Source: Eledone cirrhosa
Lineage: Eukaryota
Length of the DNA stretch: 64,000 nucleotides
Direction: 5' to 3'
NCBI GenBank assembly: GCA_964016885.1
Contig: OZ024742.1
Location: forward strand, 186,620,001-186,684,000
Shown piece after piece: positions 1 to 50,621 of the stretch. A program made the position numbers and the translations under genes. How positions within the stretch are numbered: position 1 is the stretch's first letter; every line of letters starts with the position of its first letter. The notes beneath the pieces were generated by a model. It saw only the letters and a program-made list of their open reading frames with translations, was not told the origin of the DNA and searched no databases.

Positions 1-960
1 TCTTCAGGCGCTCACAGCCCTCGACCAATCAGGCAATGTGATCGGTGGAAACTCCACCTTGGCGTTCTATAGAGGATTAGTAGAGGGGAAGAGCGACGAC
101 GTACTTGGGGAAACTCTAGGCGTCGACGAAAATCAACTAGCCAATCTCTTCGGAAGAACTTTCGGGCCGGGACCTATGGGCAACTTCCTGAAATCCCTGG
201 CCTGGCAGTGCTACCGAGGAGCCTTGACAGTTCGGGATAAACTCTACAGGCGTGGAGGTGCCGTCAGCCGGGAATGTCCGAGATGCGCGCAGGGCGACGA
301 AACCGTCCTGCACGCACTCGTCCAGTGTCCGAGCATCGCTCACTTGTGGGTTTATGTCGAACACCTGCTGTCGCGTGTAGGACGGATCCAGCTATCAGCT
401 GTGTCCATCGTGAGGATTTCCCCGCCCTCTTCCTTTAGCCGGGAAGGGCAGGCTGTTTTTATCTGTCTGGTGGCCATGGCGAAAGAGATAGTATGGTGGA
501 CACGTTTGAAAGGGCTGAAGACGAGCACTTGCCTCTTCGGTGATGCCCTGATTAACTTTTTCAAATTTCATTTGAAAAGGAAAATCAGGGTAGAGAGGGA
601 AGTGCTCTCTTCCCAGCATTTTGTTGAAAGATGGGTGAGAGAAGCAAGAATGGCCCGAGTGAATGGGCCTACTCTGAGTACGTATCTGTAAATTAAAGGT
701 GGACAACTGGGAGAGGGCACTTGCCTTGGTGGTCAGGGTCACTGTGGCCTTTTACTGGGCTTTCTCCACAAATGTCCCTCCGAAGTCTCCCCCCTATTGG
801 GGAATTTTTCATTGTTATTCTTTTTGTTACATCCTCTGTTTTTATTCTTTACACGCAGAAATGCCCATTTGTACCGTCCTGTATTTTCCTGCACTGTCCT
901 TAATGTCTACTTTATGTAAACCCTTGTGGTTAATAAAGAAATCATTATTATTATTATTAT
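1..960 (+). mobile_element. Tx1-clade LINE family A, copy 1 (3' part; continues upstream of the window)
   Basis: ORF2 C-terminus (CPRC...ETVLHALVQC, stop at 691) nearly identical to 9239..12658; 3'UTR, AATAAA at 932-937, (ATT)n tail 944-960. Confidence 0.95.
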
Positions 961-1185
961 GGCCGCACATGTGTGAAGACAGACAAGTCTGCGGGGGGAA
1001 AGGTTCGTAGCTTTAAGCTGTTTTAAAGTGTCTTTTTTAGTATTTTCTTGTCATTAACGAAACTTAAGGTACACATCTTGATTTAAAGAGAGGGATACCT
1101 CTCAATATTCGGGCTTTAAGCCCGAATATTCAAATTTATTTTTTAAAAATTTCGAAAAAAATCGCTTCCCCACTAAAAAAAAATT

Positions 1186-3154
1186 ATGGAAATTTTCGAC
1201 CTTGAAACGGTAAACAACGTTCAGGTCAAAAGTTTAAAGGCAGCCACTGCAGATTTCACCACGACTACGACGGCTACAGTCATGCCTGTCATCCACTCTA
1301 CTGAATGGGAAGGCAAAACTAAAAAGCTACCAGCACAACCTTCTGCCATAGCAGCAGTATCATCTGAAAACGACATCACCACCCCGCCGCCACCACCACC
1401 ACCACCACCACCACCACAACAACAACAACAACTCAGAGCAATAACGACAATAACACCGACAGCTTCAATATAAATAAGGATGGCGGTGGCAACAGCAAGA
1501 ATGACAACAACAACAATAAGAAACACCACATTTGCTGCAGCAGCAGCAAAAACAAAGCGCTTATTGAATATTGATATTGATATTAGCGATAAAGACGAAC
1601 AGTTGGCCAAAGCGTGGAGGCTAATTAAACGGGAGAAGTCCTGGGCAAACCTGACCATCCCGGACGAGGCAATAGCGGCCATGCAAAGGAGGACGGTGCT
1701 CTTTCGATGTATATCGGTGCAGACACGAAAAGTGGAACTTGCGAGCCAAGCAGAGTAGAGGCTGCTTTGGAATACATCGGAAGTAACATAGAGTACAAAG
1801 CAAGAGGCAAACAGTTCGGTACCATCTTGGTACTGTTCAAAACCGAGGCCCTCGCTATTAAGCACTCGGTGACCCCCTGCAGAACGGAACGCATTATCAT
1901 GCATCCGTCCTATATGGGTAAAAGGACAGTGAAGGTACGCATTCCCAGCATCCCACCAGGAATGAACATATGGTGGCTGCTGGGATGCGTAATCGAGGAG
2001 GGGACAGACACTACCCTCCTGGACATCAAAAGGACAGAGAGAGAGAGGACTGGTCCGGAATGGATTTGGAGATTATTCTCCAAATGAAACCGGAGGATAT
2101 GAATAACATCCCAGATTTTGCCCGCCTGTAGGACTTGACAACAATCCAACTAATGATTGACGGAAGAAGGCCACGCTGCTTCGTTTGCGGGGAAGCAACG
2201 CATCTTCAAGCCTTCTGCCCTCAGCGCAAAAATGCAGGGGATCGCAAACCTCCTTTGTTGCCAACGCCAGTGTCAGCACGGAAAGCTGCACCACCACCAC
2301 CACCAAAAACAACATCAACAAAAACACGGACACCAACATCAAAAGCAGCCGGATCACCACCAACACCAAAACCAATCCAAGGAGAAAACGAGGAAAGCTC
2401 TCCCACTCCCCCTACATACACATAGACAAATTATACACATAGACAAAAAAAAAATAAACGCACACACAGACACAGAGACACTCACAGACACAGACCCTTT
2501 GTCTTCCAGCAGCGAAGATGAAGGAAAACCCCAAAGTGCAAAAAAACAGAGAAAACTGACAAAAAAAAGCCCCAACAAAACACAAAAATACACACAACAA
2601 AAAATACAGACACCACTAACGCAAACACATCCCCAATAACATCAGCACCATCAGCAACATCGACACCACCTCCACAATCCCCGAAACGCAAACAACCTAA
2701 ACAAACACAAGTACAAATAAACACACAAATACCTGAAATTGCAGACACCACACCTACAACAAACATAGACATACCCGAAGCTACACCACCTTCACCAAAA
2801 CGAAAACAAATAAAACCACACCAACAAAATGTTAAAAACTTCGTGCTTGTCAGAAGGGCCAACGATAAACTGATGGCCCTCTTAGCGCGAAGCGAGGACA
2901 TTCAAACAGAGGGGGAGATTTTTGAAATGAGCACATTTTGTGTGCCAGAAGATTTGCTTCTGGTCCGAATGTCACTCAATTCCTTCAAAGAAATTCGAGA
3001 GAGCTTTCCTCAAGACGTGGGAAACCCGAATGTGAAACCCACAACAAGACTTTTAAAGGGGTTCCCCAAAGAAACCCCACCAACCATGAAGGTCGAACCA
3101 TCCGACCTTTACAAGACCCGGGAGGTAAGTAAACCTTCCCTCTTTCTCTCTTAG
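1186..3154 (+). pseudogene. Family B ORF1 (gag-like, CX2CX4HX4C knuckle), broken by stop and frameshifts
   Basis: Fragments 1186..1473, 1480..1758, 1707..2087, 2135..2425 and 2843..3154; the central ones are collinear with family A ORF1 (e.g. VRIPSIPPGMN vs VKLTHVPPGMT, GRRPRCFVC vs GKRPKCFRC). Confidence 0.8.
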
Positions 3155-3163
3155 CTTACCAAT

Positions 3164-6100
3164 ATGGCCATATTAAGAGTAGGAAGTTTAAATGTTCGCG
3201 GCCTGGGGTCACCCTGGAAGCAGGGTCGCCTGCTCAACGACCTCCGGTCGCTGGAAATGGATGTGATTGCCGTAAGCGAGACCAGAATTTCCGACACGCG
3301 TGCACTAGCCCCCATTTTCGACGACTATCAGATCTTCGCATCTGTTAGCAGGCCGGGGATGGGGGGTGGGGTGGAAGTGCTGTTTAGGAAAGGACTGGAT
3401 CTCGAGGTAAGGTCGATCTTCCGGGACCCGGACGGTAAGTTGGTGGTCTTGGATGTGAGCAGTAGCGAAGGTGGTGCCTTTAGACTGCTAGCCGTCTACG
3501 CCCCTACAGGGGCCGGACGACCTGACTTCTTTAGGCGCCTGGAGACCTTTCTGGGTACGTCTCGCCCTTTACTGTTAGCGGGGGACTGGAATGGCATCTT
3601 AGACGCACGCTGGGATTGTGTGGGAGTAGCCGATAGGAGCGGGGGGTGCAAAAGCCTCAAGCACCTACTCAGCCAGTTCCAACTGTCTGACAGGTATCGA
3701 CTAGATTTCCCCAATGTGCCAGTATGGACATGGACCAACCGAATGGGGTCATCTAGATCGTATATAGACAGAATCTTCATTAGGAAAATAGATAGAAATA
3801 GAGTGGGCTGTCCACTTTTTAAAACGGTCGCCGATTCAGATCACAAATTTGTGATCTGTACGGTCGACCTAAATAAAACGTGTAGGTTAGGACCGGATTA
3901 CTGGAAGCTGAACATGTCATTTCCGGCACGTAAGGCTTACAGGGACCGAGTCAACAAGTTAGTTAAGCAAAAGTTGACAGGGGGGATCATCAACAACAGA
4001 TGGTGGGGGGCTCTCAAAAGAGAGATTAGAGTAACTTCGATAGAGTTCAGCAAAGAACTAGCGTTAGAGAAAAATAGAAAGGAGGGGGAGCTGGTAGTTA
4101 AGTTAGACGAGGCTATTTGTAGTGGCATCGTAACTGACGTGCTAGCGGCGAGAATGGCATTAGACCATTTCTTCAATGCGAAACACGAAGTTTGCATTGT
4201 CAGAGCTAAGGCGCGTGCGCTGAGAAACGAGGGAACTAAAGGGGTTCGATGGGCCCGCGTGGCGGAGGCGCAGCGTGGTAATAAAACCACAATTCGGTCT
4301 TTGGCGGACCGAGACGGACACGAGATAAGCGATTCCAAGCGGATGTGTGAGGCCTTTCGCCAGCACTTTGCTCGGTTGTTCAGGGAGAGTGGCGAGTCAG
4401 AGAGAGTAGCGGATTTCAGTCCCTACCATGACGGCTTGCCGCGCATCTCGACGGTCGACGCTGAGCGCTGCGAAAGGCCGATTACTTCAGCCGAAATTCA
4501 GGACGCCCTTGTCGGCTGCATGAGGCGCAAGTCACCCGGTTTGGATGGCCTGCCCTACGAGCTTTACGTAAATATGCCAGACTTGTTCTCCGAACTCCTC
4601 GAAGCACTCTACTGTAACTGGCAGCAGATTGGGAGTATTCCCAGTTCTGTGAGCAGGGGAGTGGTGACGCTGATAAGGAAAGACGAGAACAAGAGGGATA
4701 CATTAGACAACTTCAGACCCATAACTCTGCTCAACACAGAGTTTAAGATTTTGGCCAAGGTGTTAGCAAAGAGATTGGCGCTTGTCGTCGAGGATTTGGT
4801 TGGGGAGGCGCAAACTTGCGCAATCCCAGCCAGGTCCATACACGACAATCTCCACCTCATGCGATACATCATAGAGAGGGTTGTGTGTAAACCTGGCCTC
4901 GGTGGGGCACTGATCAATTTAGATCAATCGAAAGCATTCGATAGGGTCGACCATCGGTATCTGGAGTCTGTCCTCAAAGCAGCTGGCTTCGGCCCTGTCT
5001 TTAGAAGCTGGATCGTTGCAATGCACAGCGGCACACGCTCGGTGGTCAAGGTTAATGGCCACCTCTCGACACCATTTCGGCTCTCCCGATCGGTCCGTCA
5101 AGGGTGCCCTCTCTCTTCCCTTCTGTACGTATTGACTCTCGAGCCTTTACTGCGGAAGCTGGAGCTGTTGCAGGGCATCCCGCTCGAACCGGGACGTAGA
5201 AAGGCGGTGTCGGCTTATGCGGACGACATCACCGTGATGGTGTCGAACACCTCAGAAATCGAGGTGGTCGGCACCTTATTGAAGGAATATGAAAGGTTGA
5301 CAGGAGCCAAACTTAACCCGGAAAAGTCGGTGGGCTTGCAGCTCGGAACCTGGAGAGGCAAGCCCATGCCGTCCAACAGCGTCGTGGGGCGCTGGACGGA
5401 CGGACCAGTAAAATCTCGGGGTTTGGTTCGGGCCAGACCTCCAGGTGGAAAAGAATTGGGACGAGGTAACGAGCAGAGTAGCCAGTCTCACCCAAAAATG
5501 GGCTGGGAGGAAGCTATCACTGAAAGGTCGCGCGGAGGTGGCGAATGCGTACATCGCGTCCGTCATCTACTACCGCCTAACCGTCGTGCCTTGCCCCCGT
5601 CCGCGCCTCATCAAGTTGGAACGGCTCCTCTTCAAATTCTTGTGGAGGGGATAAGTTCCGTTGGTGAGGCGGTCCATCTGCTGCCAGCACTCTCTACGCG
5701 GAGGGCTGGGCATGCCGTGGCTAATGATGCGCAGACATGCGTTGAGGCTGCGACATCTCCAGATATTCTGCCTCAATGGTGAACAGGTGTGGTCGCCGTT
5801 TATCAGACGGGCCTTTCCGCAGCTCATTTCTTTGACTGAGCTGCAGTCCTGGGTCAAGAAGAGACCGAGACTGGGTGACTGGCACCTGGAATGTTGCCAG
5901 GCACTCACTGCCCTCTACCAAGCGGGCAATACGATCAGTGGAACTTCCACTCTCGAGTTCTATAGAGGATTAGTGGTGGGCAAGTGCGATGACGCACTCG
6001 GAGAAGCTTTGGGCCTCGACCAAGTCGAACTGACCAGTCTGTACCGGAGGACTTTTGAGCCGGGGACGATGGACAATTTCCAGAAATCCCTCGCTTGGCA

Positions 6101-6588
6101 GTGCTACCGGGGGGCACTGCCGGTTCGGGATAAACTCTACAGGCACGGAAGTGCTGTCAGACGGACCTGCCCAAGATGCGCACAGAACGACGAAACCGTT
6201 CTGCACGCACTTGTCCAATATCCGTGCATTACTGACTTGTGGAGTTATGTCGAACAGCTATTGTCGCGTGTGGAACGAATCCGGCTATCGGCCGAGTCCA
6301 TAGTGAAGATCGAGCCGCCACCTTCCTTAGGTCAGGAAGAGCAGGACATTTTCCTCTGTCTGGTGGCAGTTGCGAAAGAGATTATATGGTGGACCAGGTT
6401 GAATGGACTAAAGACAGAGACTTTTCTCTTCGGCCAATCCCTCATCACTTTCTTCAAGTTTCACCTGGAAAGGAGGGTGAGGGGGGAGAGAGAAGTGTTG
6501 CCCCCCCCCCAGTACATTTGCTAAAAGGTGGGTGAATGTGGCGAGAATGGCTCGTGTGAATGGGCCTACTCTGACCATGCGCCTATAG
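3164..6588 (+). pseudogene. Family B ORF2 (APE endonuclease + reverse transcriptase), disrupted
   Basis: APE motifs (SLNVRGL, VSETR, GDWN, SDH) and RT motifs (KSPGLDGLP, LDQSKAFDRVDH, QGCPLS, YADD); frameshift near 5410, TAA at 5652-5654, frameshift in the C-run near 6501-6510. Confidence 0.9.
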
Positions 6589-7106
6589 GCTGGCTAACTT
6601 GAAAAGAGGGGTGCTCTCCTGGGTGCCCTAGAAGCGCAGGGTGGTTCAGGATTGGTGGTGTACCCGAATCACGCCAGGGTCGACCACCCCCTATCGGGGA
6701 ATTTATTTTGTTATATTTATGCATAGTTTATTTTATATTTTTATATTTTCATTGTTAAATTAGTCTTGCCATTGTGCACTTTTATTCGACCTTATTGTAA
6801 ACCCCCACTGTCCCTGTCTTTGTATTGTCCCCTACATGTCGGCCCTTGTGGCTAATAAATGAAATCATTATTATTATTATTATTATTATTATTGAATGCC
6901 ATGGTTGACGGAGGCTCGGCTCTGTAAGGTATAGTAATTTTTAACCGTTAAAACAATTGTAAATTGTTTAAAACTTGAACCAAATTGTTGATAAAGACAC
7001 CCTCCTCCTCGTGAGAGGGGTCTTTCTGTCCGTTATTTGGCCCTTCGGGGTTAAATAACCAGTTATTGGGGTTTTGTACCCAAAATTTCATTTTAAACAA
7101 AAAAAC

Positions 7107-9203
7107 ATGGCTACGAAAAAGAAATTTCATACGTCACTCCCACTCATTCCGTCTTCTTCTTCCTCAATCATCACTACATCAGAGAGAAGATTGTCTCTCT
7201 CCCTCCCTTCTTTAAATGTGTCTCTCTCCCTCCCTTCTCTTTCGCAAGCGACGAAAGAAAAGAAAAGTCTCGTGCAAAGCGTGCAAGGTTTCTCCACGAC
7301 GACGACGACAGCGACGAAACAGGTGTGCGGGAAATACGAAAACCCAGTTCATTCGTCTGACGTCAGGAATAATAGCAGTAGCAGCCGTAATAACAACAGC
7401 AACAGTGACAATGAAAACAACAGTAGCAGCCGCAACAGCATCACCAGCAGCATAAACAACAACAGCATTAGCAGCAGCAACACCAACAACAACCACAGCA
7501 ACAGCGGCGGAGGCAGTAGTCGTAGTACCTGCAGCAACAACAAAAGTACCAGCAGCTCTGACGACAACAACAACAGCAGAGAAAAACCAATCTCATTTGC
7601 AGGTATTGCGAAAAACTTGGAAACAATCCTCATAACAAATGAGGAATTAGAGGAAGCGAAGAAGATGGTGACAAAGAACGGACACCGAGCAATCTGCAAG
7701 GCAGCGAAAAATTTTTTCGAAACCCAAGAGCACTGTACGGTCACGTACCGTACAGTAAGTACAAAATCCCGTAGGGTGGAAAGAGCCACAGAGGCCCAAA
7801 TACAAAAAGCCTTGGGGTCTGTGTGGCAGAGGAAAACGCACATCACCCGAGGCAAAAAATACGCCACCGTAGACGTACTTTTTGCCACACCCCAGGAGGC
7901 AAAGGCCCAATCAGTAGTGACCCTAAGGAGCGAGGAAATGGTGTTGGTGCCCTCCTACTGCGGGCAAAAAATTGTGAGGGTCAAACTGACCCACGTCCCC
8001 CCCGGAATGACCCCTTCTTGGCTGGCCGCGTCTGTCCTCGTCGGAATCGAGGACAAAACAACTGTACTGCAAGTACAGAAAAAAGTAAGAGAAGATTGGG
8101 TCGGCTCCTCCATTGAGATGCTAATCCAAACCAACCAGGAGTGCATCGAAGCTATCCCGGATGTGATAGACTTCGATAACGGCACTCAACTGCCCATAAG
8201 TGTTGAGGGCAAACGCCCGAAATGCTTTCGCTGTGGATCGAAGACTCACCTCAGAGCCTTCTGCAACGAGAAGACCCTGAGAAAGGAGAAAACCCCCCTC
8301 CTTCCGAATCCGGCTCCACGGCTACCAGCAACAGGACAAGCGGCAACCAGGAACGATAGGTCCGTGGCACCCATACCCACTCCACGGAAATCAAAGACAG
8401 CAGCAGCAGTGGAAATATTAACAACAACAACAGCAATACCAAATGCAGCTGCAACAGAGACTCCAGTGCAAACATCACCAACAACAACAAGTGAAAGAGT
8501 GGAGCTGGTACCCCTCCCCGACCTTACAGAATCAGACATGGAGTGTGAGGTGGGAGAGGGATGGCAAAAGGTCGCAAGAAGGCACAAACGCAGAAGCAGC
8601 GCATCGTCGCCTTTGAAAAGGGAGGAAAGAAATGAGAAAAGGGTAAAGTCTACTGCAAAGAGACCCACAGCAGCAACACCACCAACACCATCACCACCCA
8701 CACCAGCACCACCATCACCACCGGCGACAACCCCACCGCCAACAACACCTTCAACACCACCACCACAAGCACCAACATCGCAAACACAACAACAAAACAC
8801 ACACACCCAGCAACAACGACAAGAAAATAGCAGAACCACACCCCACCCCCAGAAAAACAAATGCACGGCAATAAACACACACAACAAGAAACTAATGACT
8901 TACATAATTGAACACACAGACATTTCACTACAGGACTACATAATACCAGCACCAATCAAAACGCCAACTAACATAAGACTGCTAAAAATAGCACAGAAAC
9001 AATACACAAACATTAAAACGAAATTCCCCAACGCAGTTGGTGATTTCAGGGACCTAGGAGGAACCATCAATCGAAGAGTATATTCAGACATTCTCTTAGA
9101 AGAGCCGACGACCAGCCGAAGGGACGATTCAACGGTCCCTTCACCAGACGATCAAGTGAAAAGGGATGTAAAAACCATCCCTCCTCTACCAAAAGTACGG
9201 TAA
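7107..9203 (+). CDS. LINE ORF1p: N/S-rich N-terminus, putative RNA-binding core, CCHC zinc knuckle, P/T-rich C-terminus
   Basis: First ATG at 7107 (MATKKK; the track's 7074 start is TTG); CFRCGSKTHLRAFC knuckle; position upstream of an APE-RT ORF. Confidence 0.9.
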   Translation: MATKKKFHTSLPLIPSSSSSIITTSERRLSLSLPSLNVSLSLPSLSQATKEKKSLVQSVQGFSTTTTTATKQVCGKYENPVHSSDVRNNSSSSRNNNSNSDNENNSSSRNSITSSINNNSISSSNTNNNHSNSGGGSSRSTCSNNKSTSSSDDNNNSREKPISFAGIAKNLETILITNEELEEAKKMVTKNGHRAICKAAKNFFETQEHCTVTYRTVSTKSRRVERATEAQIQKALGSVWQRKTHITRGKKYATVDVLFATPQEAKAQSVVTLRSEEMVLVPSYCGQKIVRVKLTHVPPGMTPSWLAASVLVGIEDKTTVLQVQKKVREDWVGSSIEMLIQTNQECIEAIPDVIDFDNGTQLPISVEGKRPKCFRCGSKTHLRAFCNEKTLRKEKTPLLPNPAPRLPATGQAATRNDRSVAPIPTPRKSKTAAAVEILTTTTAIPNAAATETPVQTSPTTTSERVELVPLPDLTESDMECEVGEGWQKVARRHKRRSSASSPLKREERNEKRVKSTAKRPTAATPPTPSPPTPAPPSPPATTPPPTTPSTPPPQAPTSQTQQQNTHTQQQRQENSRTTPHPQKNKCTAINTHNKKLMTYIIEHTDISLQDYIIPAPIKTPTNIRLLKIAQKQYTNIKTKFPNAVGDFRDLGGTINRRVYSDILLEEPTTSRRDDSTVPSPDDQVKRDVKTIPPLPKVR

Positions 9204-9238
9204 GTGGTCTTTCCCATTTTTTCCACTCTATTTTAAAC

Positions 9239-12658: not shown

Positions 12659-13154
12659 ACTAAAGGTGGAAAACTGGGAGAGGGCACTTGCCTTGGTGGT
12701 CAGGGTCATTGTGGCTTTTTACTGGGCTTTCTCCACAAATGTCCCTCCGAAGTCTCCCCCATATTGGGGAATTTTTCATTGTTATTTTCATTGTTATTTT
12801 TGTTACATCCTCTGTTTTTGTTTTTTTACACGCAGAAATGCCCATTTGTACCGTCCTGCATTGTCCTGCACTGTCCTTAATGTCTACTTTATGTAAACCC
12901 TTGTGGTTAATAAAGAAATCATTATTATTATTATTATTATTGAATGCCATGGTTGACGGAGGCTCGGCTCTGTAAGGTATAGTAATTTTTAACCGTTAAA
13001 ACAATTGTAAATTGTTTAAAACTTGAACCAAATTGTTGATAAAGACACCCTCCTCCTCGTGAGAGGGGTCTTTCTGTCCGTTATTTGGCCCTTCGGGGTT
13101 AAATAACCAGTTATTGGGGTTTTGTACCCAAAATTTCATTTTAAACAAAAAAAC

Positions 13155-15266
13155 ATGGCTACGAAAAAGAAATTTCATACGTCATTCCCACTCATTCCGT
13201 CTTCTTCTTCCTCAATCATCACTACAGCAGAGAGAAGATTGTCTCTCTCCCTCCCTTCTTTAAATGTGTCTCTCTCCCTCCCTTCTCTTTCGCAAGTGAC
13301 GAAAGAAAAGAAAAGTCTCGTGCAAAGCGTGCAAGGTTTCTCCACGACGACGACGACAGCGACGAAACAGGTGTGCGGGAAATACGAAAACCCAGTTCAT
13401 TCGTCTGACGTCAGGAATAATAGCAGTAGCAGCCGTAATAACAACAGCAACAGTGACAATGAAAACAACAGTAGCAGCCGCAACAGCATCACCAGCAGCA
13501 TAAACAACAACAGCATTAGCAACAGCAACACCAACAACAACCACAGCAACAGCGGCGGAGGCAGTAGTCGTAGTACCTGCAGCAACAACAAAAGTACCAG
13601 CAGCTCTGACGACAACAACAACAGCAGAGAAAAACCAATCTCATTTGCAGGTATTGCGAAAAACTTGGAAACAATCCTCATAACAAATGAGGAATTAGAG
13701 GAAGCGAAGAAGATGGTGACAAAGAACGGACACCGAGCAATCTGCAAGGCAGCGAAAAATTTTTTCGAAACCCAAGAGCACTGTACGGTCACGTACCGTA
13801 CAGTAAGTACAAAATCCCGTAGGGTGGAAAGAGCCACAGAGGCCCAAATACAAAAAGCCTTGGGGTCTGTGTGGCAGAGGAAAACGCACATCACCCGAGG
13901 CAAAAAAAAAAAAAAAAAAAAATACGCCACCGTAGACGTACTTTTTGCCACACCCCAGGAGGCAAAGGTCCAATCAGTAGTGACCCTAAGGAGCGAGGAA
14001 ATGGTGTTGGTGCCCTCCTACTGCGGGCAAAAAATTGTGAGGGTCAAACTGACCCACGTCCCCCCCGGAATGACCCCTTCTTGGCTGGCCGCGTCTGTCC
14101 TCGTCGGAATCGAGGACAAAACAACTGTACTGCAAGTACAGAAAAAAGTAAGAGAAGATTGGGTCGGCTCCTCCATTGAGATGCTAATCCAAACCAACCA
14201 GGAGTGCATCGAAGCTATCCCGGATGTGATAGACTTCGATAACGGCACTCAACTGCCCATAAGTGTTGAGGGCAAACGCCCGAAATGCTTTCGCTGTGGA
14301 TCGAAGACTCACCTCAGGGCCTTCTGCAACGAGAAGACCCTGAGAAAGGAGAAAACCCCCCTCCTTCCGAATCCGGCTCCACGGCTACCAGCAACAGGAC
14401 AAGCGGCAACCAGGAACGATAGGTCCGTGGTACCCATACCCACGCCACGGAAATCAAAAACAGCAGCAGCAGTGGAAATATTAACAACAACAACAGCAAT
14501 ACCAAATGCAGCTGCAACAGAGACTCCAGTGCAAACATCACCAACAACAACAAGTGAAAGAGTGGAGCTGGTACCCCTCCCCGACCTCACAGAATCAGAC
14601 ATGGAGTGTGAGGTGGGAGAGGGATGGCAAAAGGTCGCAAGAAGGCACAAACGCAGAAGCAGCGCATCGTCGCCTTTGAAAAGAGAGGAAAGAAATGAGA
14701 AAAGGGTAAAGTCTACTGCAAAGAGACCCACAGCAGCAACAACACCAACACCATCACCACCCACACTAGCACCACCATCACCACCGGCGACAACCCCACC
14801 GCCAACAACACCTTCAACACCACCACCACAAGCACCAACATCGCAAACACAACAACAAAACACACACACCCAGCAACAACGACAAGAAAATAGTAGAACC
14901 ACACCCCACCCCAAGAAAAACAAATGCACGGCAATAAATACACACAACAAGAAACTAATGACTTACATAATTGAACACACAGACATTTCACAACAGGACT
15001 ACATAATACCAGCACCAATCAAAACGCCAACTAACATAAGACTGCTAAAAATAGCACAGAAACAATACACAAACATTAAAACGAAATTCCCCAACGCAGT
15101 TGGTGATTTCAGGGACCTAGGAGGAACCATCAATCGAAGAGTATACTCAGACATTCTCTTAGAAGAGCCGACGACCAGCCGAAGGGACGATTCAACGGTC
15201 CCTTCACCAGACGATCAAGTGAAAAGGGATGTAAAAACCATCCCTCCTCTACCAAAAGTACGGTAA
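13155..15266 (+). CDS. LINE ORF1p (copy 3; in-frame +5 Lys)
   Basis: Near-identical to 7107..9203; A6 run expanded to A21 at 13902-13922. Confidence 0.9.
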   Translation: MATKKKFHTSFPLIPSSSSSIITTAERRLSLSLPSLNVSLSLPSLSQVTKEKKSLVQSVQGFSTTTTTATKQVCGKYENPVHSSDVRNNSSSSRNNNSNSDNENNSSSRNSITSSINNNSISNSNTNNNHSNSGGGSSRSTCSNNKSTSSSDDNNNSREKPISFAGIAKNLETILITNEELEEAKKMVTKNGHRAICKAAKNFFETQEHCTVTYRTVSTKSRRVERATEAQIQKALGSVWQRKTHITRGKKKKKKKYATVDVLFATPQEAKVQSVVTLRSEEMVLVPSYCGQKIVRVKLTHVPPGMTPSWLAASVLVGIEDKTTVLQVQKKVREDWVGSSIEMLIQTNQECIEAIPDVIDFDNGTQLPISVEGKRPKCFRCGSKTHLRAFCNEKTLRKEKTPLLPNPAPRLPATGQAATRNDRSVVPIPTPRKSKTAAAVEILTTTTAIPNAAATETPVQTSPTTTSERVELVPLPDLTESDMECEVGEGWQKVARRHKRRSSASSPLKREERNEKRVKSTAKRPTAATTPTPSPPTLAPPSPPATTPPPTTPSTPPPQAPTSQTQQQNTHTQQQRQENSRTTPHPKKNKCTAINTHNKKLMTYIIEHTDISQQDYIIPAPIKTPTNIRLLKIAQKQYTNIKTKFPNAVGDFRDLGGTINRRVYSDILLEEPTTSRRDDSTVPSPDDQVKRDVKTIPPLPKVR

Positions 15267-15301
15267 GTGGTCTTTCCCATCTTTTCCACTCTATTTTAAA
15301 C

Positions 15302-18300
15302 ATGACCTCACTCAGAATAGGCAGCATAAATGCGCGTGGCTTGGGGTCGTCATGGAAGCAGGGTCACCTGCTCAACGACCTCAGGTCACTAAACATAGAT
15401 GTAGTGGCCATCAGCGAGACCAGAATCTCCGAAGCACGGGCCTTCGCACCGATCTTCGGCGGCTACGATGTGTACGCATCTCCCAGCCGTCCTGGATCCG
15501 GTGGAGGAGTTGCTGTGCTTTTTCGGAGAGGTTTGGATCTCGCCATACGGGCCATCTTCCTGGACCCAGAGGGTAAGCTGGTGGTGCTGGACGTGACCAG
15601 CGGAGACGGGCAAGCTTTCAGGCTAGTGGCCGTCTATGCCCCGACGGGAGCAGGGCGGCCTGATTTCTTCCGGCGTCTGGAGACCTTTCTTGGAACGTCC
15701 CGCTCTTTAGTGTTAGTGGGCGACTGGAACGGGATCTTAGATGCACGCTGGGACTGTGTGGGATTAGCGGATAGGGGTGGAGGGTGCAAGAGCCTCACCA
15801 ACCTGCTCAGGCGTTTTGAACTGTCTGACAGGTACCGATTGGATTTCCCGAATGTGCCAATGTGGACTTGGACAAACCGCATAGGGTCATCCAGATCATA
15901 TCTAGATAGAGTATTTTGTAGGGAAATAGATAGGTCTAGCATAGGCTGTCCACAATTCAAGATAGTCAGCTACACGGACCACAAATTCGTGACCTGTGTG
16001 CTTGACTTAGATAGGCTTCATAGACGAGGACCCGGCTACTGGAAGCTAAACGCGTCCTTACCAGCGCGCAAGGCCTACAGAGACCGGATTAGCGAACTAG
16101 TTAAGCGGGCGTTGACGGGGGCCATCGTCAACAACAAGTGGTGGTTTGCTCTGAAAAGAGCGATTAGAATAGAATCGATTAGGTTTAGTAAGGCTTTAGC
16201 AATAGAGAAAAATAGAGCAGAGGGAGAACTAGTTAGAAAATTAGACGAGGCGCTTAGCAAAGGCATTGCGACCGACGTGCTTGCGGCGAAATTGGCCCTT
16301 GACCAATTCTTCAATGCAAAGCACGAAGGCTGCGTTGTCAGAGCTAGGGTGCGTGCTCTCAGACACGAGGGGACGAAAGCCGTTCAATGGGCCCGAGTGG
16401 CGGAGGCGCGTCGTGGCAACAAAGCCACGATCCGGTCTTTGGTGGACCACGACGGGCGCATGCTACTCGATCCCGGGCAAATGTGTGAAGCTTTTCAGCG
16501 ACACTTCGCTCAGCTGTTCGGGGGCAGCGGGGGGCCGGGTAGAGGGATGGACTTTAGTGTCTACCTCGACGGACTGCCGCGGCTCTCGGCCACTGAGGCG
16601 AGGTGTTGCGAAAAGCCGATAACAGCCGCTGAAGTACGGGAGGCAATGACTGGCTGCACAAGGGGTAAATCGCCTGGTTTGGATGGTCTGCCCTATGAAC
16701 TTTACGTACAGATGCCAGACTTGTTCGGAGGCCTCTTGGCGGACGTCTACTGCAACTGGCAACAGAACGGGAGAATTCCCAGTTCTGTGAGCCGAGGAGC
16801 GGTGGCACTGCTGAGAAAGGATCCGAACAAGGGGGATAACATAGACAATTTCCGGCCCATAACTCTGCTAAACACAGAGTTTAAGATTTTGGCCAAGGTG
16901 CTAGCAAAGAGGTTGGCGCTTGTCGTTGGTGGTCTGGTGGGAGAGGCGCAGACATGCGCCATTCCCGACAGATCCATCCACGACAACCTCCACCTCATGC
17001 GATACATCGTAGAGAGGGTAGCTAGGGAACCTGGCACGGGTGGGTCTTTGATCAATTTAGATCAGTCGAAAGCTTTCGATAGGGTCGACCATCGTTACCT
17101 AGCGGCAGTCCTGAGGGCGGCTGGCTTTGGGCCCGTCTTCAGAGGCTGGATCGCTGCCATGCACAGCGACATCTGCTCTGTGGTGAGAGTGAACGGTCAC
17201 CTGTCGGAACCGTTCAACATCATGCGCTCGGTCCGCCAAGGATGTCCCCTCTCGTCCCTCTTGTACGTATTGACTCTCGAGCCATTACTGCACAAACTGG
17301 AGACGTTGAGGGGAGTCCCGCGCGAACTAGGATACGGAAGATCCGTGTCAGCATATGCGGACGATGTCACCGTAGTGGTGTCGAACGCCAAACACATCGA
17401 GGCGATCGGCACTACACTAAGAGAATACGAAGCGGTGACAGGAGCAATGATCAACCAGGAAAAGTCAGTGGGCCTGCAGCTCGGCACCTGGAGAGGCAGG
17501 TCCATGCCGTCCAACAGCGTCGTCGGGCGCTGGACGGACGGACCGGTTAAATTGCTAGGGGTCTGGTTCGGTCCGGACCTCCAGACGGACAAAAACTGGG
17601 ACGAGGTGACGAGCAGGGTGGCTTCTCTCACCCAGAAATGGGCGGAGAGGAAGCTATCCCTGAAAGGTCGAGCGGAGGTGGCTAACGCGTACATCGCGTC
17701 TGTCATCTGCTACCGCCTAACCGTCGTACCTTGTCCTAAGCCTCGCCTGACTGCGCTGGAGCGTTTGCTCTTTCGCTTTTTGTGGAAGGGACGTGCTCCG
17801 ATGGTCAGGCGGTCCATCTGTTGTCAACACCCGCTACGTGGAGGGCTGGGCATGCCGTGGCTGATGATGCGCAGGCACGCGCTCAGGCTACGACATCTCC
17901 ACCTCTTCCTCGACGGTGATCAGGTGTGGTCGCCGTTTGCTAGACGCGTTTTTCCCCAGCTCGTTTCCTTGACGGAGCTGCAGTCCTGGGTCAAGCGAAG
18001 ACCGAGAGGGAGCGCCTGGAGACTGGAATGTCTTCAGGCGCTCACAGCCCTCGACCAATCGGGCAATGTGATCGGTGGAAACTCCACCTCGGCGTTCTAT
18101 AGAGGATTAGTGGAGGGGAAGAGCGACGACGTACTTGGGGAAACTCTAGGCGTCGACGAAAATCAACTAGCCAATCTCTTCGGAAGAACTTTCGGGCCAG
18201 GGCCTATGGACAACTTCCAGAAATCTCTGGCCTGGCAGTGCTACCGAGGAGCCTTGCCAGTTCGGGATAAACTCTACAGGCATGGAGGTGCCGTCAGCCG

Positions 18301-18721
18301 GGCATGTCCGAGATGCGCGCAGGGCGACGAAACCGTCCTGCACGCACTCGTCCAGTGTCCGAAAATTGCTGACTTGTGGGTTTATGTCGAACACCTGCTG
18401 TCGCGTTTAGGACGGATCCAGCTATCATCTGAGTCTATCGTGAGGATTGCCCCGCCCTCCTCCTTTAGCCGGGAAGGGCAGGAAGTTTTTATCTGTCTGG
18501 TGGCCATGGCGAAAGAGATAGTATGGTGGACACGTTTGAAAGGGCTGAAGACGAGCACTTACCTCTTCGGTGATGCTCTGATTGACTTTTTCAAATTTCA
18601 TTTGAAAAGGAAAATCAGAGTAGAGAAGGAAGTGCTCTCTTCCCAGCATTTTGTTGAAAGATGGGTGAGAGAAGCAAGAATGGCCCGAGTGAATGGGCCG
18701 ACTCTGAGTATATATCTGTAA
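15302..18721 (+). CDS. LINE ORF2p, 1139 aa (copy 3)
   Basis: I see two differences from the copy-2 protein (ELGCGR>ELGYGR, EGQAVF>EGQEVF); all APE and RT motifs intact. Confidence 0.97.
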   Translation: MTSLRIGSINARGLGSSWKQGHLLNDLRSLNIDVVAISETRISEARAFAPIFGGYDVYASPSRPGSGGGVAVLFRRGLDLAIRAIFLDPEGKLVVLDVTSGDGQAFRLVAVYAPTGAGRPDFFRRLETFLGTSRSLVLVGDWNGILDARWDCVGLADRGGGCKSLTNLLRRFELSDRYRLDFPNVPMWTWTNRIGSSRSYLDRVFCREIDRSSIGCPQFKIVSYTDHKFVTCVLDLDRLHRRGPGYWKLNASLPARKAYRDRISELVKRALTGAIVNNKWWFALKRAIRIESIRFSKALAIEKNRAEGELVRKLDEALSKGIATDVLAAKLALDQFFNAKHEGCVVRARVRALRHEGTKAVQWARVAEARRGNKATIRSLVDHDGRMLLDPGQMCEAFQRHFAQLFGGSGGPGRGMDFSVYLDGLPRLSATEARCCEKPITAAEVREAMTGCTRGKSPGLDGLPYELYVQMPDLFGGLLADVYCNWQQNGRIPSSVSRGAVALLRKDPNKGDNIDNFRPITLLNTEFKILAKVLAKRLALVVGGLVGEAQTCAIPDRSIHDNLHLMRYIVERVAREPGTGGSLINLDQSKAFDRVDHRYLAAVLRAAGFGPVFRGWIAAMHSDICSVVRVNGHLSEPFNIMRSVRQGCPLSSLLYVLTLEPLLHKLETLRGVPRELGYGRSVSAYADDVTVVVSNAKHIEAIGTTLREYEAVTGAMINQEKSVGLQLGTWRGRSMPSNSVVGRWTDGPVKLLGVWFGPDLQTDKNWDEVTSRVASLTQKWAERKLSLKGRAEVANAYIASVICYRLTVVPCPKPRLTALERLLFRFLWKGRAPMVRRSICCQHPLRGGLGMPWLMMRRHALRLRHLHLFLDGDQVWSPFARRVFPQLVSLTELQSWVKRRPRGSAWRLECLQALTALDQSGNVIGGNSTSAFYRGLVEGKSDDVLGETLGVDENQLANLFGRTFGPGPMDNFQKSLAWQCYRGALPVRDKLYRHGGAVSRACPRCAQGDETVLHALVQCPKIADLWVYVEHLLSRLGRIQLSSESIVRIAPPSSFSREGQEVFICLVAMAKEIVWWTRLKGLKTSTYLFGDALIDFFKFHLKRKIRVEKEVLSSQHFVERWVREARMARVNGPTLSIYL

Positions 18722-18981
18722 ACTAAAGGTGGAAAACTGGGAGAGGGCACTTGCCTTGGTGGTCAGGGTCATTGTGGCTTTTTACTGGGCTTTCTCCACA
18801 AATGTCCCTCCGAAGTCTCCCCCATATTGGGGAATTTTTCATTGTTATTTTCATTGTTATTTTTGTTACATCCTCTGTTTTTGTTTTTTTACACGCAGAA
18901 ATGCCCATTTGTACCGTCCTGCATTGTCCTGCACTGTCCTTAATGTCTACTTTATGTAAACCCTTGTGGTTAATAAAGAAA

Positions 18982-19040
<59 letters not shown>

Positions 19041-22000
19041 GAATGCCATGGTTGACGGAGGCTCGGCTCTGTAAGGTATAGTAATTTTTAACCGCTATAA
19101 CAATTGTAAATTGTTTAAAACTTTAACCAAATTGTAGACAAAAACACCCTCCTCTTCGTGAGAGGGGTCTTTCTGCGCGTTATTTGGCCCTTCGGGGTTA
19201 AATAACCGCTTATTGGGGTTTTGTGCCCAATATTTATTTTAAACCAAAAAAACATGGCTACCAAAAATAATTTTCACAAGTCACACCCACTCATTCGTCA
19301 CTACATCAGAGAGATGATTGTCTCTCTCCCTCCCTTCTCTAAATGTGTCTCTCTCCCGCCCGTCTCTTTCACAAGCGACGCTAGTAAAGAAAAAGAAAAA
19401 TATAGTTTCTGATAGTTTCCAAGAGCACGTGCAAAACGTGGAACATTTCTCCACGACGACAACAACGACGAAAAATGTGTGCTGTAAATACGGAAAGCCA
19501 TTTCATTCGTCTGACGTCATGAATAATAGCAGTAGCAGCCGTAATAACAGCAGCACCAGCAACAGTGACAAGGAAAACAACAGTAGCAGCCGCAACACAT
19601 CAGTAGCAGCATAAACAACAACAGCATTAGCAGCAACAGCAACAACAACAGCAGCAGCAGCACCAACAACAACAACCACAGCAACAGCGGCGGCGGCAGT
19701 CGTAGTACCAGCAGCAACAACAAAAGTAACAGCTCTGACGACAACAACAACAACAACAAAGAAAAACCAATCTCGTTTGCAGGTATCGCAAAAAACCTGG
19801 AAACCATCCTTATAACAAATGAGGAATTACAGGAAGCAAAGAAGATGGTGACGAAAACAGGACACCGAGCAATCTGTGAGGCAGCCGAAAATTTTTCGAA
19901 ACCCAACAGAACTGTACGGTCACGTACTATACAGTAAGCACAAAATCCCGTAGGGTTGAAAGAGCCACAGAGGCTCAAATACAAAAAGCCTTAGGGTCTG
20001 TTTGGCAGCGGAAAACGCATATCACCCGAGGCAAGAAATATGCCACCGTGGACGTGCTTTTTACCACACCCAGGAGGCAAAGGCTCAATCCTTAGTGACC
20101 CTAAGGAGCGAGGAAATGGGGTTGGTGCCCTCCTACTGCGGACAAAAAATTGTGAGGGTCAAACTGAGCCCCCCCCCCTTTCTTGGCTGGCCGCGTCTGT
20201 CCTCGTCGGAATCGAGGACAATACAACTGTACTGCAAGTACAGAAAAAAGTACGAGAAGATTGGGTCGGCACCTCCATTGAGATGTTAATCCAAACCAGC
20301 CAGGAGTGCATTGAAGCTATCCCGGATGTGATCAACTTCGATAACGGCACTGAACTGCCCATAAGCTTTGAGGGCAAAAGCCTGAAATGCTTTCGCTGTG
20401 GATCGAAGACTCACCTCAGGGACTTCTGCAATGAGAAGACCCTGAGAAAGGAGAAAAACCCCTCCTTCCGAAACCGGCTCCACTGCTACCAGCAACAGGA
20501 CAAGCGGCAACCAGGAACGAAAGGTCCGTGGCACCCATACCCACGCCACGGAAATAAAGAACAGCAGCAGCAGTGGAAGTATTAACAACAACAGTAATAC
20601 CAACTGCAGCTGCAACAGAGACTCCACTGCAAACATCACCAACAACAACAAGTGAAACAGTGGAGCTGGTACCCCTCCCCGACCTCACAGAATCGGACAT
20701 GGAGTGTGAGGTGGGAGAGGGATGGTAAAAGGTCGCAAGAAGGCACAAACGCAGAAGCAGCGCATCGTCGCCTTCAAAAAGGGAGGAAAGAAATGAAAAA
20801 AGGCTAAAGGCTACTGCAAAGAGACTTACAGCAGCAACACCACCAACACCATCACCACCCACGCTAGCACCACCATCACCACCGGAGGCAACCCCACCGC
20901 AAACAACAACACCTTCAACACCACCACCACAAGCGCCAACATCGCAAACACAACAACAAAACACACACACCCCGCAACAACGACAAGAAAATAGCAAAAC
21001 TACACCCCACACCCAGAAAAACAAATGCACAGCAATAAATACACACAACAAGAAACTAATGACTTACATAATTGAACACACAGACATTTCACTGCACGAC
21101 TACATAATACCAGCACCAATCAAAACACCAACGAACATAAGACTGGTAAGAATAGCAGAGAAGCAATACACAAAAATTAAAACGAAATTCCCCAACGCAG
21201 TTGGTGATTTCAGAGACCTAGGAGGGTCACTCAACCGGAGAATATATTCGGATAAACTCACAGAAGAGCCGACGACCAGCCGAAGGGACGATTCAACGGT
21301 CCCTTCACCAGACGATCAAGTGAAAAGGGATGGAGAAACCATCCTTCCTCTACGAGAAGTAAGGTAAGTGGTCTTCCCCATCTTTTCCACCCCATTTCAA
21401 CATGACCTCACTCAGAATAGGCAGCATAAATGCGCGTGTCTTGGGGTCGTCATGGAAGCAGGGCCACCTGCTCAACGACCTCAGGTCACTAAACATAGAT
21501 GTAGTGGCCATCAGCGAGACCAGAATCTCCGAAGCACGGGCCTTCGCACCGATCTTCGGCGGCCACGATGTGTACGAATCACCCAGCCGTCCGGGATCGG
21601 GGGGAGGAGTTGCTGTGCTTTTTCGGAGAGGTTTGGATCTCGCCATACGGGCCTTCCTCCTGGGCCCAGAAGGTAAGTTGTTAGTGCTGGACGTGACCAG
21701 CGGAGATGGGCAAGCTTTCAGGCTAGTGGCCGTCTATGCCCCGACAGTAGCAGGGGGGCCTGTTTTCTTCCGGCGTCTGAAGACCTTTCTCGGAACGTCC
21801 CGCTCTTTAGTGTTAGTGGGCGACTGGAACGGGATCTTAGATGCACGCTAGGACTGAGTGGGATTAGCGGATAGAGGAGGAGGGTGTAAGAGCCTCACCA
21901 ACCTGCACAGGCGTTTTGAATTGTCTGACAGGTACCGATTGGGTTTCCCGAATGTGCCAAAGTGGACTTGGACAAATCGCATAGGGTCATCCAGATCATA

Positions 22001-23181
22001 TCTAGATAGAGTATTTTGTAGGGAAATAGATAGGTCTAGCATAAACTGTCCACAATTCAAGATAGTCAGCTACACGGACAAAAATTCGTGATCTGTGTGC
22101 TTGACTTAGATAGGCTTCATAGACGAGGACCCGGCTACTGGAAGCTAAACGCATCGTTAACAGCGCGCAAGGCCTACAGAGACCGTATTAGTGAACTAGT
22201 TAAGCGGGCGTTGACGCGGGCCATTGTCAACAACAAGTGGTGGTTTGCTCTGAAAAGAGCGATTAAAATAGAGTCCGTTAGGTTTAGTAAGGCTTTAGCA
22301 ATAGATAAAAATAGAGCAGAGGGAGAATTAGTTAGAAAATTATATGAGGTGCTTAGCAAAGGCATCGCGACCGACGTGCTTGCGGCGAAATTGGCCCTTG
22401 ACCAATTCTTCAATGCAAAGCACGAAGGCTGCGTTGTCAGGGCTAGGGTGCGTGCTGTCAGACACGGGGGGACGAAAGCCGTTCAATGGGCCCGAGTGGC
22501 GGAGGCGCGTCGTGGCAACAAAGCCACGATCCGGTCTTCAGGGCGATGAAACCGTCCTGAACGTAGTCGTCCAGTGTCTGAGCATTGCTCACTTGTGGGT
22601 TTATGTCGAACACCTGCTGTCGCGTGTAGGACGGATCTAGCTATCAGCTGTGTCCATCGTGAGGATTTCCCCGCCCTCTTCCTTTAGCCGGGAAGGGCAG
22701 GCAGTTTTTATCTGTCTGGTGGCCATGGCGAAAGAGATAGTATGGTGGACACGTTTGAAAAGGCTGAAGACGAGCACTTACCTCTTCGGTGATGCCCTGA
22801 TTAACTTTTTCAAATTTGATTTGAAAAGGAAAATCAGGGTAGAGAGGGAAGTGCTCTCTTCCCAGCATTTTGTTGAAAGATGGGTGAGAGAGGCAAGAAT
22901 AGCCCGAGTGAATGGCCCTACTCTGAGTATGTGTCTGTAAATTAAAGGTGGAAAACTGGGAGAGGGCACTTGCCCTGGTGGTCAGGCTCACTGTGGTCTT
23001 TTAATGGGCTTTCTCCACAAATGTCCCTCGGAAGTCTCCCCCCTATTGGGGAATTTTTCTTTGTTATTTTATTTCATCCTCTGTTTTTTACACGCAGAAA
23101 TGCCCATTTGTACCGTCCTGTATTGTCCTGTACTGTCCTTAATGTCTACTTTATGTAAACCCTTGTGGTTAATAAAGAAAA

Positions 23182-23215
<34 letters not shown>

Positions 23216-23227
23216 GTTATTGTTATT
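19041..23227 (+). mobile_element. Tx1-clade LINE family A, copy 4 (degenerate, RT deleted)
   Basis: Same 5' end; many stops and frameshifts; junction at 22538/22539 removes the equivalent of 10377-12256; tail 23183-23227. Confidence 0.93.
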
Positions 23228-27750: not shown

Positions 27751-27751
27751 T

Positions 27752-27796
27752 CTTCTTCTTCTTCTTCTTCTTCTTCTTCTTCTTCTTCTTCTTCTT

Positions 27797-31022: not shown

Positions 31023-31275
31023 TATATATATATATATATAATGTTTGTGTTTTTAAGTATCCGTCACGTAACTTAACGGTTTCCTTCTAATTTTATTTTT
31101 AAAAATCTTTATATATAATGTCCGATGCGTTGATTATGCAACTCACTCTCTTTCTTTGAAGCGTGATTCTAATACGAATTTATGTTAATGCAACCTCTTG
31201 TTTGTTCTTTTTTTGCTTGCTTGGTATATATATATATATATATATATACATATACACATATATGTATATATACTT

Positions 31276-31326
<51 letters not shown>

Positions 31327-31361
31327 AAAGAATAGAGGTGTAACACACAAGTTATTATATA

Positions 31362-31854
<493 letters not shown>

Positions 31855-50303: not shown

Positions 50304-50369
50304 TATTTCATTATATATATTTCAGGGATATCATATTAAAAATATGGTATGCCTTCATCAGACAAAATA
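50304..50369 (-). ncRNA. Minimal type I hammerhead motif
   Basis: Reverse complement of 51310-51375. Confidence 0.7.
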
Positions 50370-50621
50370 CAATATAAACAGTCTTATAAATAGATAGATT
50401 TGACATACCTTACACTTCAACTTCCATTTAAAAAGTTGATTTGGTAGTGAAAAATGTTAGGGACAGTTATAGAGAAAAAAAGAAAGAAAGAAAGAAAGCG
50501 AAGAAAAAGAAGAAATGCATGCAACGAAAAACAGAGAGAGATAGATATAGAGAGATAGATAGAGAGAAGAAATTCATGTAAAGAAAAAACAGAGAGAGAT
50601 AGATAGAGAGAGAAAAAACAG

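What the first reader, a model, noticed from the sequence alone, without database searches (positions are those of the whole stretch)
1..23227. Self-templating LINE train: Tx1 elements that insert into their own (ATT)n tails
Seen: five elements (A, B, A, A, A) lie head-to-tail with only (ATT)n between them (junctions 960/961, 6893/6894, 12941/12942, 19040/19041). The three visible family A starts are identical (GAATGCCATGG) and family B also retains its 5'UTR. Two copies have intact ORFs, and degenerate and intact copies of two families are interleaved. Known: the Tx1 clade has sequence-specific APE families (Kibi/Koshi in microsatellites, Keno in U2, Mutsu in 5S), and LINE insertions are usually 5'-truncated. 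Inference: the APE cuts (ATT)n, each insertion regenerates the target, and arrays grow like HeT-A/TART trains. Read-through RNA starting with (AUU)n could anneal to the target and explain the full-length 5' ends.
Basis: partly seen in the sequence, partly recalled or inferred. Interest (0 to 1): 0.8.

Follow-up and report, generated by a model that had tools for sequence, protein, structure and literature searches.

The report
ATT-homing LINEs copying neighbours' front ends
Thousands of copies of a jumping gene in a probably octopus genome sit precisely in ATT repeats, mostly full-length and often stacked head-to-tail, likely because their RNA starts inside the repeat and pairs with the landing site, and some newer copies carry the front end of the copy next door.

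Summary
The train is real and one of many. The L1/Tx1-group families are (ATT)n-specific genome-wide: 1585 of 1628 family A starts follow (ATT)3 in phase, and 67 of 98 sampled copies keep their 5' end. 'Own tails' is only partly right. 21 of 67 follow a Tx1 tail, about twice the base rate, and Dong/R4-like elements use the same repeat in antisense. The arrays are dispersed, not telomeric. Two new results. (1) Family A has a sharp floor of six pure ATT units at its 5' junction (19% loss from 6 to 7 units, 8% at tails). Truncated copies lack the floor, which fits an 18-nt (AUU)6 RNA leader that anneals to the target. No RNA data confirm it, and families C and D show no sharp floor. (2) In other trains, spacers up to about 0.9 kb are duplicated exactly, and the upstream copy shares up to 2.9 kb of 5' sequence with its downstream neighbour. 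In two cases a young 3' part is joined to the old neighbour's 5' part. The window's copies 3 and 4 do not show this. The scan has noted ATT-targeting Tx1 and a repeat-borrowing promoter on other DNA (e1-9512120, e1-9582433). Verdict: new variant of a known kind.

The parts
1..943 (+). 3' part of copy 1, a decayed C-type element (own 5'UTR/ORF1, A-type ORF2 and 3'UTR) that begins 4926 bp before the window
944..960 (+). spacer (ATT)5 AT
961..6866 (+). family B copy, 5'-complete, ORF1 broken, ORF2 split into 3164-5782 and 5712-6524; about 77% identical to A over ORF2
6867..6893 (+). spacer (ATT)9; the last six units are the predicted RNA leader of copy 3 (inferred)
   Evidence: genome-wide floor
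6894..12920 (+). family A copy 3, intact: 213-nt 5'UTR, ORF1 7107-9203 with CCHC, ORF2 9239-12658 (APE, RT, zf-RVT), AATAAA at 12909, no poly(A)
6903..6907 (+). GGTTG, matches the DPE consensus RGWYV at +28..+32 if +1 is the A of the sixth ATT upstream (post hoc, untested)
   Evidence: sequence; consensus from PMC1538597 passages
12921..12941 (+). spacer (ATT)7
12942..18983 (+). family A copy 4, intact: ORF1 13155-15266, ORF2 15302-18721; 25 substitutions from copy 3, 21 of them in the first 3 kb
18984..19040 (+). spacer (ATT)19
19041..23182 (+). family A copy 5, older (about 90% to copy 3), frameshifted, 1880-bp internal deletion at 22538/22539
23183..23227 (+). (ATT)11 GTT ATT GTT ATT, shared between copy 5 and the antisense Dong-like 3' end
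23228..27750 (-). Dong/R4-like LINE, tail-to-tail with the train; ORF 23282-26695 (1137 aa, RT, C-terminal CCHC, RPD motif), no APE domain
   Evidence: clade name from recalled domain layout plus the TAA target of Dong in PMC3812793
27751..27853 (.). (TCT)25 then (ATT)9, the repeat on the 5' side of the Dong-like element

Best explanation
These are several active L1/Tx1-group LINE families that sit in phase in (ATT)n repeats across the genome and pile up because ATT runs lie on both sides of each insertion; their endonuclease likely nicks the repeat, family A RNA likely starts 18 nt upstream inside the repeat so that its copy pairs with the target, and new copies landing upstream of a relative likely finish their 5' end by copying it. 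Shown: target specificity, the high full-length share, the six-unit 5' floor in A, exact spacer duplications and 5' chimeras. Inferred: endonuclease specificity; priming at a 3' AUU without poly(A); an internal downstream promoter that places the start site in the borrowed repeat; and strand invasion of the downstream neighbour during insertion (a synthesis-dependent annealing step that duplicates everything between the nick and the switch point). Odds by step: targeting 0.95, (AUU)6 leader in A 0.55, neighbour copying coupled to insertion 0.55.
For: Targeting: 1585 of 1628 A starts follow (ATT)3; 97 of 98 3' ends continue with ATT directly after AATAAA..AAA[T/A/G]C. Full length: 67 of 98, and at least 3959 exact A+C starts against 7322 exact 3' ends. 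Target left on both sides: upstream plus downstream run has a median of 26 units, against a median of 6 for 79 control runs. Leader: A 5' run survival is 1585/1544/1489/1204 at 3/5/6/7 units, against 3071/2710/2534/2332 at A-type tails; the 6-to-7 loss is 19% against 8%, p 1e-24. At least 6 units precede 61 of 67 complete copies but 6 of 27 truncated ones. Several truncated junctions beside ATT show 1-4 nt microhomology to the repeat (read by eye). Uniform junctions go with target-bearing RNA in R2 (PMC3774820 abstract). Neighbour copying: of 12 A-to-A junctions with a marked spacer, 7 have it duplicated upstream, including 816 bp with 0 differences, 757 bp with 1 and 163 bp with 0. 5 of 25 adjacent A pairs have no substitution in the first 700 nt or more, against 1 of 380 non-adjacent pairs. 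In T76 and T63 the upstream copy is old-type for about 1.5 kb, matches its old downstream neighbour there, and is young thereafter.
Against: No RNA evidence exists here. My written prediction of floors at 5 (A) and 7 (C) failed in detail: A's floor is 6, and C decays gradually (2387/2265/2170/2020/1667 at 3/5/6/7/9 units). Family D, with GGACG at the same place as A's GGTTG, loses 29% between 3 and 6 units (573 to 406). The GGTTG fit is post hoc. The GTT(ATT)5 marker is not linked to one haplotype at dispersed loci. Truncated copies may have lost their flank by deletion. Neighbour copying was seen in 0 of 7 C-C pairs and not in the window's own pairs. 4 of 12 marked A-to-A spacers are not duplicated, and 1 only in part. 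The trains were chosen for having two exact A starts, which favours shared 5' ends.
Confidence: 0.65

Rival explanations
1. RNA starts at the first G from an ordinary internal promoter. The six-unit floor reflects how much pure repeat the protein needs upstream of the second-strand cut, and a processive RT plus added A residues makes the junctions look precise.
For: All sampled family starts begin with G after T, a plausible start dinucleotide (own knowledge). The floor is soft or absent in C and D. Counts at 7 and 8 units are as high as at 6 in the sample, so there is no single spike.
Against: Truncated copies use the same enzyme but lack the floor (6 of 27 against 61 of 67). Tails lack it too, so it is not an 18-nt target duplication.
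Confidence: 0.35
2. The duplicated spacers and 5' chimeras arise after insertion: by unequal crossing-over between a new copy and the neighbour on the allele that lacks it, or by repair of an endonuclease break in the ATT run using the neighbour as template.
For: Both routes give the same product as copying during insertion (reasoning). Young A copies are widely mosaic. Copies 3 and 4 in the window are closer in their 3' half (4 substitutions against 21), as recombination between neighbours could give.
Against: All eight switch points lie in the first 2.9 of 6.0 kb (crude p 0.003), whereas crossovers should spread evenly. No adjacent pair is near-identical throughout (minimum 22 substitutions among the pairs). 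Break repair would also be 5'-biased and is not excluded.
Confidence: 0.4
3. Read-through from the upstream element or flank makes long RNAs that are reinserted, as the first reader proposed by analogy to HeT-A.
For: No poly(A) tails are seen, so some 3' read-through into AUU is plausible. Tx1 tails are over-represented upstream (21 of 67 against at most 15%, p 8e-4).
Against: 46 of 67 complete copies have no Tx1 tail upstream. The closest pair (13 substitutions) has unrelated upstream flanks. Duplicated leaders come with different 3' parts, which a whole read-through RNA would not give. No HDV-like fold or Rfam hit was found to trim such RNA.
Confidence: 0.12
4. The array is a tandem duplication or an assembly error.
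For: Copies 3 and 4 are 99.2% identical, and duplications that include flanks occur in the sample (L100/L101, L129/L131).
Against: 25 substitutions is an ordinary distance between unlinked young copies, and copy 3's nearest relative lies on another contig at 15. Three 5' types are interleaved.
Confidence: 0.03

Closest known systems
Kibi (TC)n, Koshi (TTC)n and crocodilian (TTCC)n/(TTTC)n Tx1 families (PMC4494074, PMC3812793; passages read)
   Same: APE-type LINEs specific for a microsatellite. Sequential tandem insertions sandwiching a target duplication are reported for the Tx1-mobilised SINEU-3.
   Different: The target here is (ATT)n, which these passages do not list for Tx1. There are thousands of copies, about two thirds 5'-complete, with a 5' run floor and neighbour chimeras not mentioned there.
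Dong (R4 clade), TAA microsatellite target (PMC3812793 passages)
   Same: Same repeat. A Dong-like element sits tail-to-tail in this window and after at least 33 of 98 sampled 3' ends (two families).
   Different: A different endonuclease class (recalled) and the opposite strand. The shared target is convergence, not kinship.
R2 elements whose RNA keeps upstream 28S sequence (PMC3774820, abstract and outline)
   Same: Target sequence at the RNA 5' end is proposed to anneal to the target and give uniform 5' junctions.
   Different: R2 uses co-transcription and an HDV-like ribozyme. None was found here; the leader would come from a start site inside the repeat.
L1 templated insertions and chimeras by synthesis-dependent strand annealing (10.1101/2024.08.27.596794 passages, citing Gilbert 2005, which could not be read)
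   Same: Growing cDNA pairs with nearby homologous DNA and duplicates a genomic segment.
   Different: There the templates are non-L1, typically under 250 bp and somatic. Here the template is the adjacent family member, up to 2.9 kb of 5' end plus up to 0.9 kb of spacer, fixed in an assembled genome and recurrent.
Drosophila HeT-A/TART telomeric trains (recalled; PMC1636488 passages only for promoter motifs)
   Same: Head-to-tail arrays of mixed families.
   Different: Here the sites are dispersed and internal, targeting is sequence-specific at a microsatellite, and there is no sign of a promoter in the upstream copy.

Membership tests
L1 group (L1/Tx1) LINE | ORF2 with N-terminal APE endonuclease and RT, closer to L1 than to R2 | tested here: met
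   PF03372, PF00078, PF13966; L1 ORF2p E 2e-52 against R2 1e-21; catalytic-site motifs present
L1 group (L1/Tx1) LINE | Separate ORF1 upstream of ORF2 | tested here: met
   698-aa ORF1 with one CCHC; no Pfam hit; look-alikes are CCHC and ZCCHC3-type RNA-binding clusters at 0.89-0.93 (lead only)
Tx1 clade | RT phylogeny groups with named Tx1 families (Tx1L, Kibi, Koshi, Keno) | not testable with these tools
   No named Tx1 sequence was returned; no tree with references was built
Microsatellite-specific Tx1 (Kibi/Koshi type) | More than 20% of flanks carry the target (criterion in PMC4494074) | tested here: met
   1585 of 1628 A starts; 64 of 67 complete copies follow at least 4 in-phase units
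Microsatellite-specific Tx1 (Kibi/Koshi type) | Endonuclease cleaves the target sequence | not testable with these tools
   Needs a nicking assay
HeT-A/TART-like telomeric train | Arrays at chromosome ends | tested here: not met
   Window at 186.6 Mb of a 378.9-Mb contig; copies spread along C1
HeT-A/TART-like telomeric train | Upstream copy's 3' end is carried as a 5' tag (recalled) | tested here: not met
   46 of 67 complete copies have no Tx1 tail upstream; among 30 A starts, same-family upstream neighbours ran on for more than 1 kb, not as short tags
R2-like 5' processing | HDV-like ribozyme at the 5' end | tested here: not met
   0 Rfam hits at E<=1 in 1-28000; 0 descriptor hits in 9 5' regions (home-made descriptor, no positive control run)
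DPE-type internal promoter (jockey, Doc, F, G, I) | RGWYV about +28 to +32 from the start site | tested here: inconclusive
   A fits post hoc with its six-unit floor; D has the motif but no sharp floor; C lacks the motif at that place; the start site was not mapped
Dong/R4 clade (neighbour element) | RT with C-terminal CCHC and restriction-like nuclease, no APE, TAA target | tested here: inconclusive
   RT, CCHC and RPD motif, best structures are R2; flanked by (AAT)n; no R4 reference tree

The most novel reading that the evidence does not exclude
An APE-type LINE that has outsourced its start site to its target. It transcribes six ATT units of the landing repeat, uses them to pair its cDNA with the next repeat, and so inserts full-length most of the time. 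When it lands ahead of a relative it completes itself by copying that relative's 5' end, which swaps promoters and ORF1 types between families (as in the C-type 5' part on an A-type ORF2) and duplicates up to about 0.9 kb of neighbouring DNA.
Probability: 0.35. Interest if true: 0.8.

Novelty: new variant of a known kind. Interest (0 to 1): 0.62.

Why it matters
How LINEs join their 5' ends, and why most are truncated, is an open question. These families give thousands of natural junctions, a mostly full-length outcome, intact active candidates (19 of 39 full-length A copies examined) and marked spacers that record each event. A target-derived leader in an APE element would parallel R2 by another route. 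It would bear on the design of precise, full-length RNA-templated insertion. Neighbour copying offers a concrete route for 5'UTR/ORF1 exchange between LINE families. It also warns that tandem copies with duplicated spacers need not be DNA duplications. Two unrelated LINE clades sharing one repeat on opposite strands helps explain how repeat nests grow in this genome.

Tried and rejected
A DNA search of the genome with the A 5' end returned nothing, because common words are skipped; patterns were used instead. No RNA holder was listed. Laying four contig sets gave no information on RNA starts. The Rfam and HDV-descriptor searches were empty. The metagenome scan with a 42%-identical relative found no locus, so the targets of relatives in other species are untested. 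Homologs carried no useful names, and NCBIfam gave only a weak RT hit. One paper search was swamped by unrelated hits. Gilbert 2005 was not held under the id tried, and the supplements of PMC4494074, which may list further Tx1 targets, could not be read. The prediction of floors at 5 (A) and 7 (C) from an ACG motif was not met. The test for an RNA-borne GTT(ATT)5 marker was negative. A short upstream 3' tag as in HeT-A was not seen.
Full report
OBSERVATION. The train is present as described. Five elements lie head-to-tail, separated by 5 to 19 ATT units. Two A copies have intact ORF1 and a 1139-aa ORF2 with APE, RT and zf-RVT domains. Human L1 ORF2p is the closest solved relative. Fetching 40 kb upstream showed that copy 1 begins 4926 bp before the window with a third 5' type, C, joined to an A-type ORF2. 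It follows (ATT)7 and a 129-bp B fragment. Downstream, a Dong/R4-like element lies in antisense at 23228-27750 and shares the last repeat. The window is mid-contig, at 186.6 of 378.9 Mb, in a 3.0-Gb genome. No tool named the organism. Octopus is likely from unchecked earlier notes and from the young L1-Tx1 and Dong-R4 families reported in Octopus vulgaris (PMC13282606, first third of the text read).

TARGET. The A start 24-mer occurs 1628 times; 1585 of these follow (ATT)3 in phase. The C start occurs 2331 times and the shared 3' end 7322 times. I fetched 98 of the first 100 listed 3' ends, all on C1, leaving out two that repeat a third at 395-bp spacing. The script called 62 copies 5'-complete and 36 not. 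By eye I moved 5 variant starts to complete and set 4 aside as undetermined, giving 67 complete and 27 truncated. 97 of 98 3' ends run straight into ATT without poly(A); 9 have at most one pure unit, so a long tail is not obligatory. Upstream neighbours of the 67 were a Tx1 tail 21 times, a SINE tail 6, CTT repeats 3, a Dong-like 5' end 3 and other 34. The base rate for Tx1 tails is at most 10,120 of 67,123 runs, so own tails are enriched about twofold but are not the main target. Downstream neighbours by pattern (lower bounds) were antisense Dong-like 3' ends 33 times, Tx1 starts 21, SINE 2 and other 42. One Dong-like 3' end occurs 8588 times. Flanking runs sum to a median of 26 units against 6 for control runs. 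That fits either repeat gain at insertion or a preference for long runs; empty alleles are needed to decide.

5' JUNCTION. I tested the footprint that this predicts. For A, pure upstream runs of at least 3, 5, 6 and 7 units number 1585, 1544, 1489 and 1204. For A-type tails they number 3071, 2710, 2534 and 2332. Loss is about 1-4% per unit up to six and then 19% on the 5' side, but a smooth 6-8% at tails (p 1e-24). At least six units precede 61 of 67 complete but 6 of 27 truncated copies. This is what an 18-nt (AUU)6 leader annealing to the target would leave. It parallels R2 lineages whose RNA keeps upstream 28S sequence and has uniform junctions (PMC3774820, abstract). GGTTG at element positions 10-14 would then sit at +28 to +32, matching RGWYV (PMC1538597 and PMC1636488, passages). 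That fit is post hoc. My noted prediction (floors of 5 and 7) failed: C decays gradually, and D, a related family, falls from 573 to 406 between 3 and 6 units despite GGACG at the same place. Older age may blur these floors, but that is untested. No ribozyme was found, and no RNA data were available.

HOW TRAINS GROW. I fetched further trains on C1, chosen for close A or C starts. Neighbours differ by 22 or more substitutions, like unlinked copies, so they are not plain duplications. Yet interrupted spacers are often repeated exactly upstream of the upstream copy: 34 bp, 59 bp, GTT(ATT)5 twice, 232 bp holding a 163-bp fragment (0 differences), about 890 bp holding an 816-bp antisense fragment of a second Dong-like family (0 differences), and about 880 bp holding a 757-bp fragment (1 difference). 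That is 7 of 12 marked A-to-A junctions, with 1 partial and 4 not duplicated. Five of 25 adjacent A pairs have no substitution for the first 740, 1224, 1515, 1652 and 2917 nt and then diverge; 1 of 380 non-adjacent young pairs does so beyond 700 nt. A sixth pair has 4 substitutions in 1.5 kb and then 16-42 per 500 nt. In T76 and T63 the downstream copy is old and decayed, while the upstream copy is old-type for 1.5 kb and young thereafter. This fixes the direction: the newcomer sits upstream and took its neighbour's 5' end. Four of the nine genome-wide GTT(ATT)5 starts lie in one train, and the other five do not share its haplotype, so the marker spreads locally. The simplest reading is that the cDNA invades the downstream relative and copies back to the nick, akin to L1 templated insertions (10.1101/2024.08.27.596794, passages). 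Later crossing-over with the empty allele, or break repair, gives the same product and stays open. Limits: the trains were selected, none of 7 C-C pairs shows the pattern, and the window's own pairs do not. Most full-length copies have no relative downstream, so this route does not explain the high full-length share.

COMPARISON. Microsatellite-specific Tx1 families and TAA-specific Dong are known (PMC4494074, PMC3812793, PMC4640811; passages). Paper searches returned no description of an (ATT)n-specific Tx1 family, of cephalopod trains or of recurrent neighbour capture. The library lacks most subscription papers, Repbase and the supplement of PMC4494074, so absence from print is not established. 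Tx1 clade membership was not tested against references. The telomeric-train membership test fails.

VERDICT. A real feature and a new variant of a known kind. Target specificity is firm. The RNA leader and insertion-coupled neighbour copying are supported by sequence footprints only. Interest 0.62.

Noticed in passing
window 27300-27760 (-), 6894-7106, 961-1190 and loci of families C, D, F: The 5'UTRs of five Tx1 5' types and the Dong-like element share a layout: about 205-225 nt, hairpins 40-90 nt before an A-run and ATG. D and Dong share TCGCTCCC(A)GTAAGT.
   Followed up: partly
T114 train (G000:C1 about 114,792,200-114,792,390, minus); antisense pair at window 28437-28831: An abundant 189-bp SINE-like repeat ends in AGTAGAAACA(ATT)n (17,658 exact tails with four units). 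Its 3' end resembles the Tx1 3' end weakly (13 of 1000 shuffles reach the score for B, 32 for A), and 4 of 9 starts follow ATT. Possible partner SINE.
   Followed up: partly
window 58436-60706 (-) and 62290-62769 (-): Further RT ORFs with Dong/R4-like C-termini; the first begins in a (GTAT)n repeat.
   Followed up: no
window 51920-53198 (-): Fragment of a more distant Tx1-like family, about 72% identical to A and B.
   Followed up: no
window 54725-56978: A 310-bp tandem repeat, 4.2 copies followed by 3.1 copies in the opposite orientation, nearly 100% identical: a 2-kb palindrome.
   Followed up: no
window 50255-51424 and 31225-31787: Long inverted-repeat segments (96% and 88%), fold-back or MITE-like.
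   Followed up: no
L102, L138 (G000:C1:28,992,631 and 42,482,118 3' ends): Copies that keep only the first 8-10 nt of the 5' end and then jump far into the element, as a template jump or deletion would give.
   Followed up: no
window 23282-26695 (-): The Dong-like ORF is open over 1137 aa, but its nuclease motif reads IVNVAC where a second family fragment has IDMSVP; an acidic residue may be lost.
   Followed up: no
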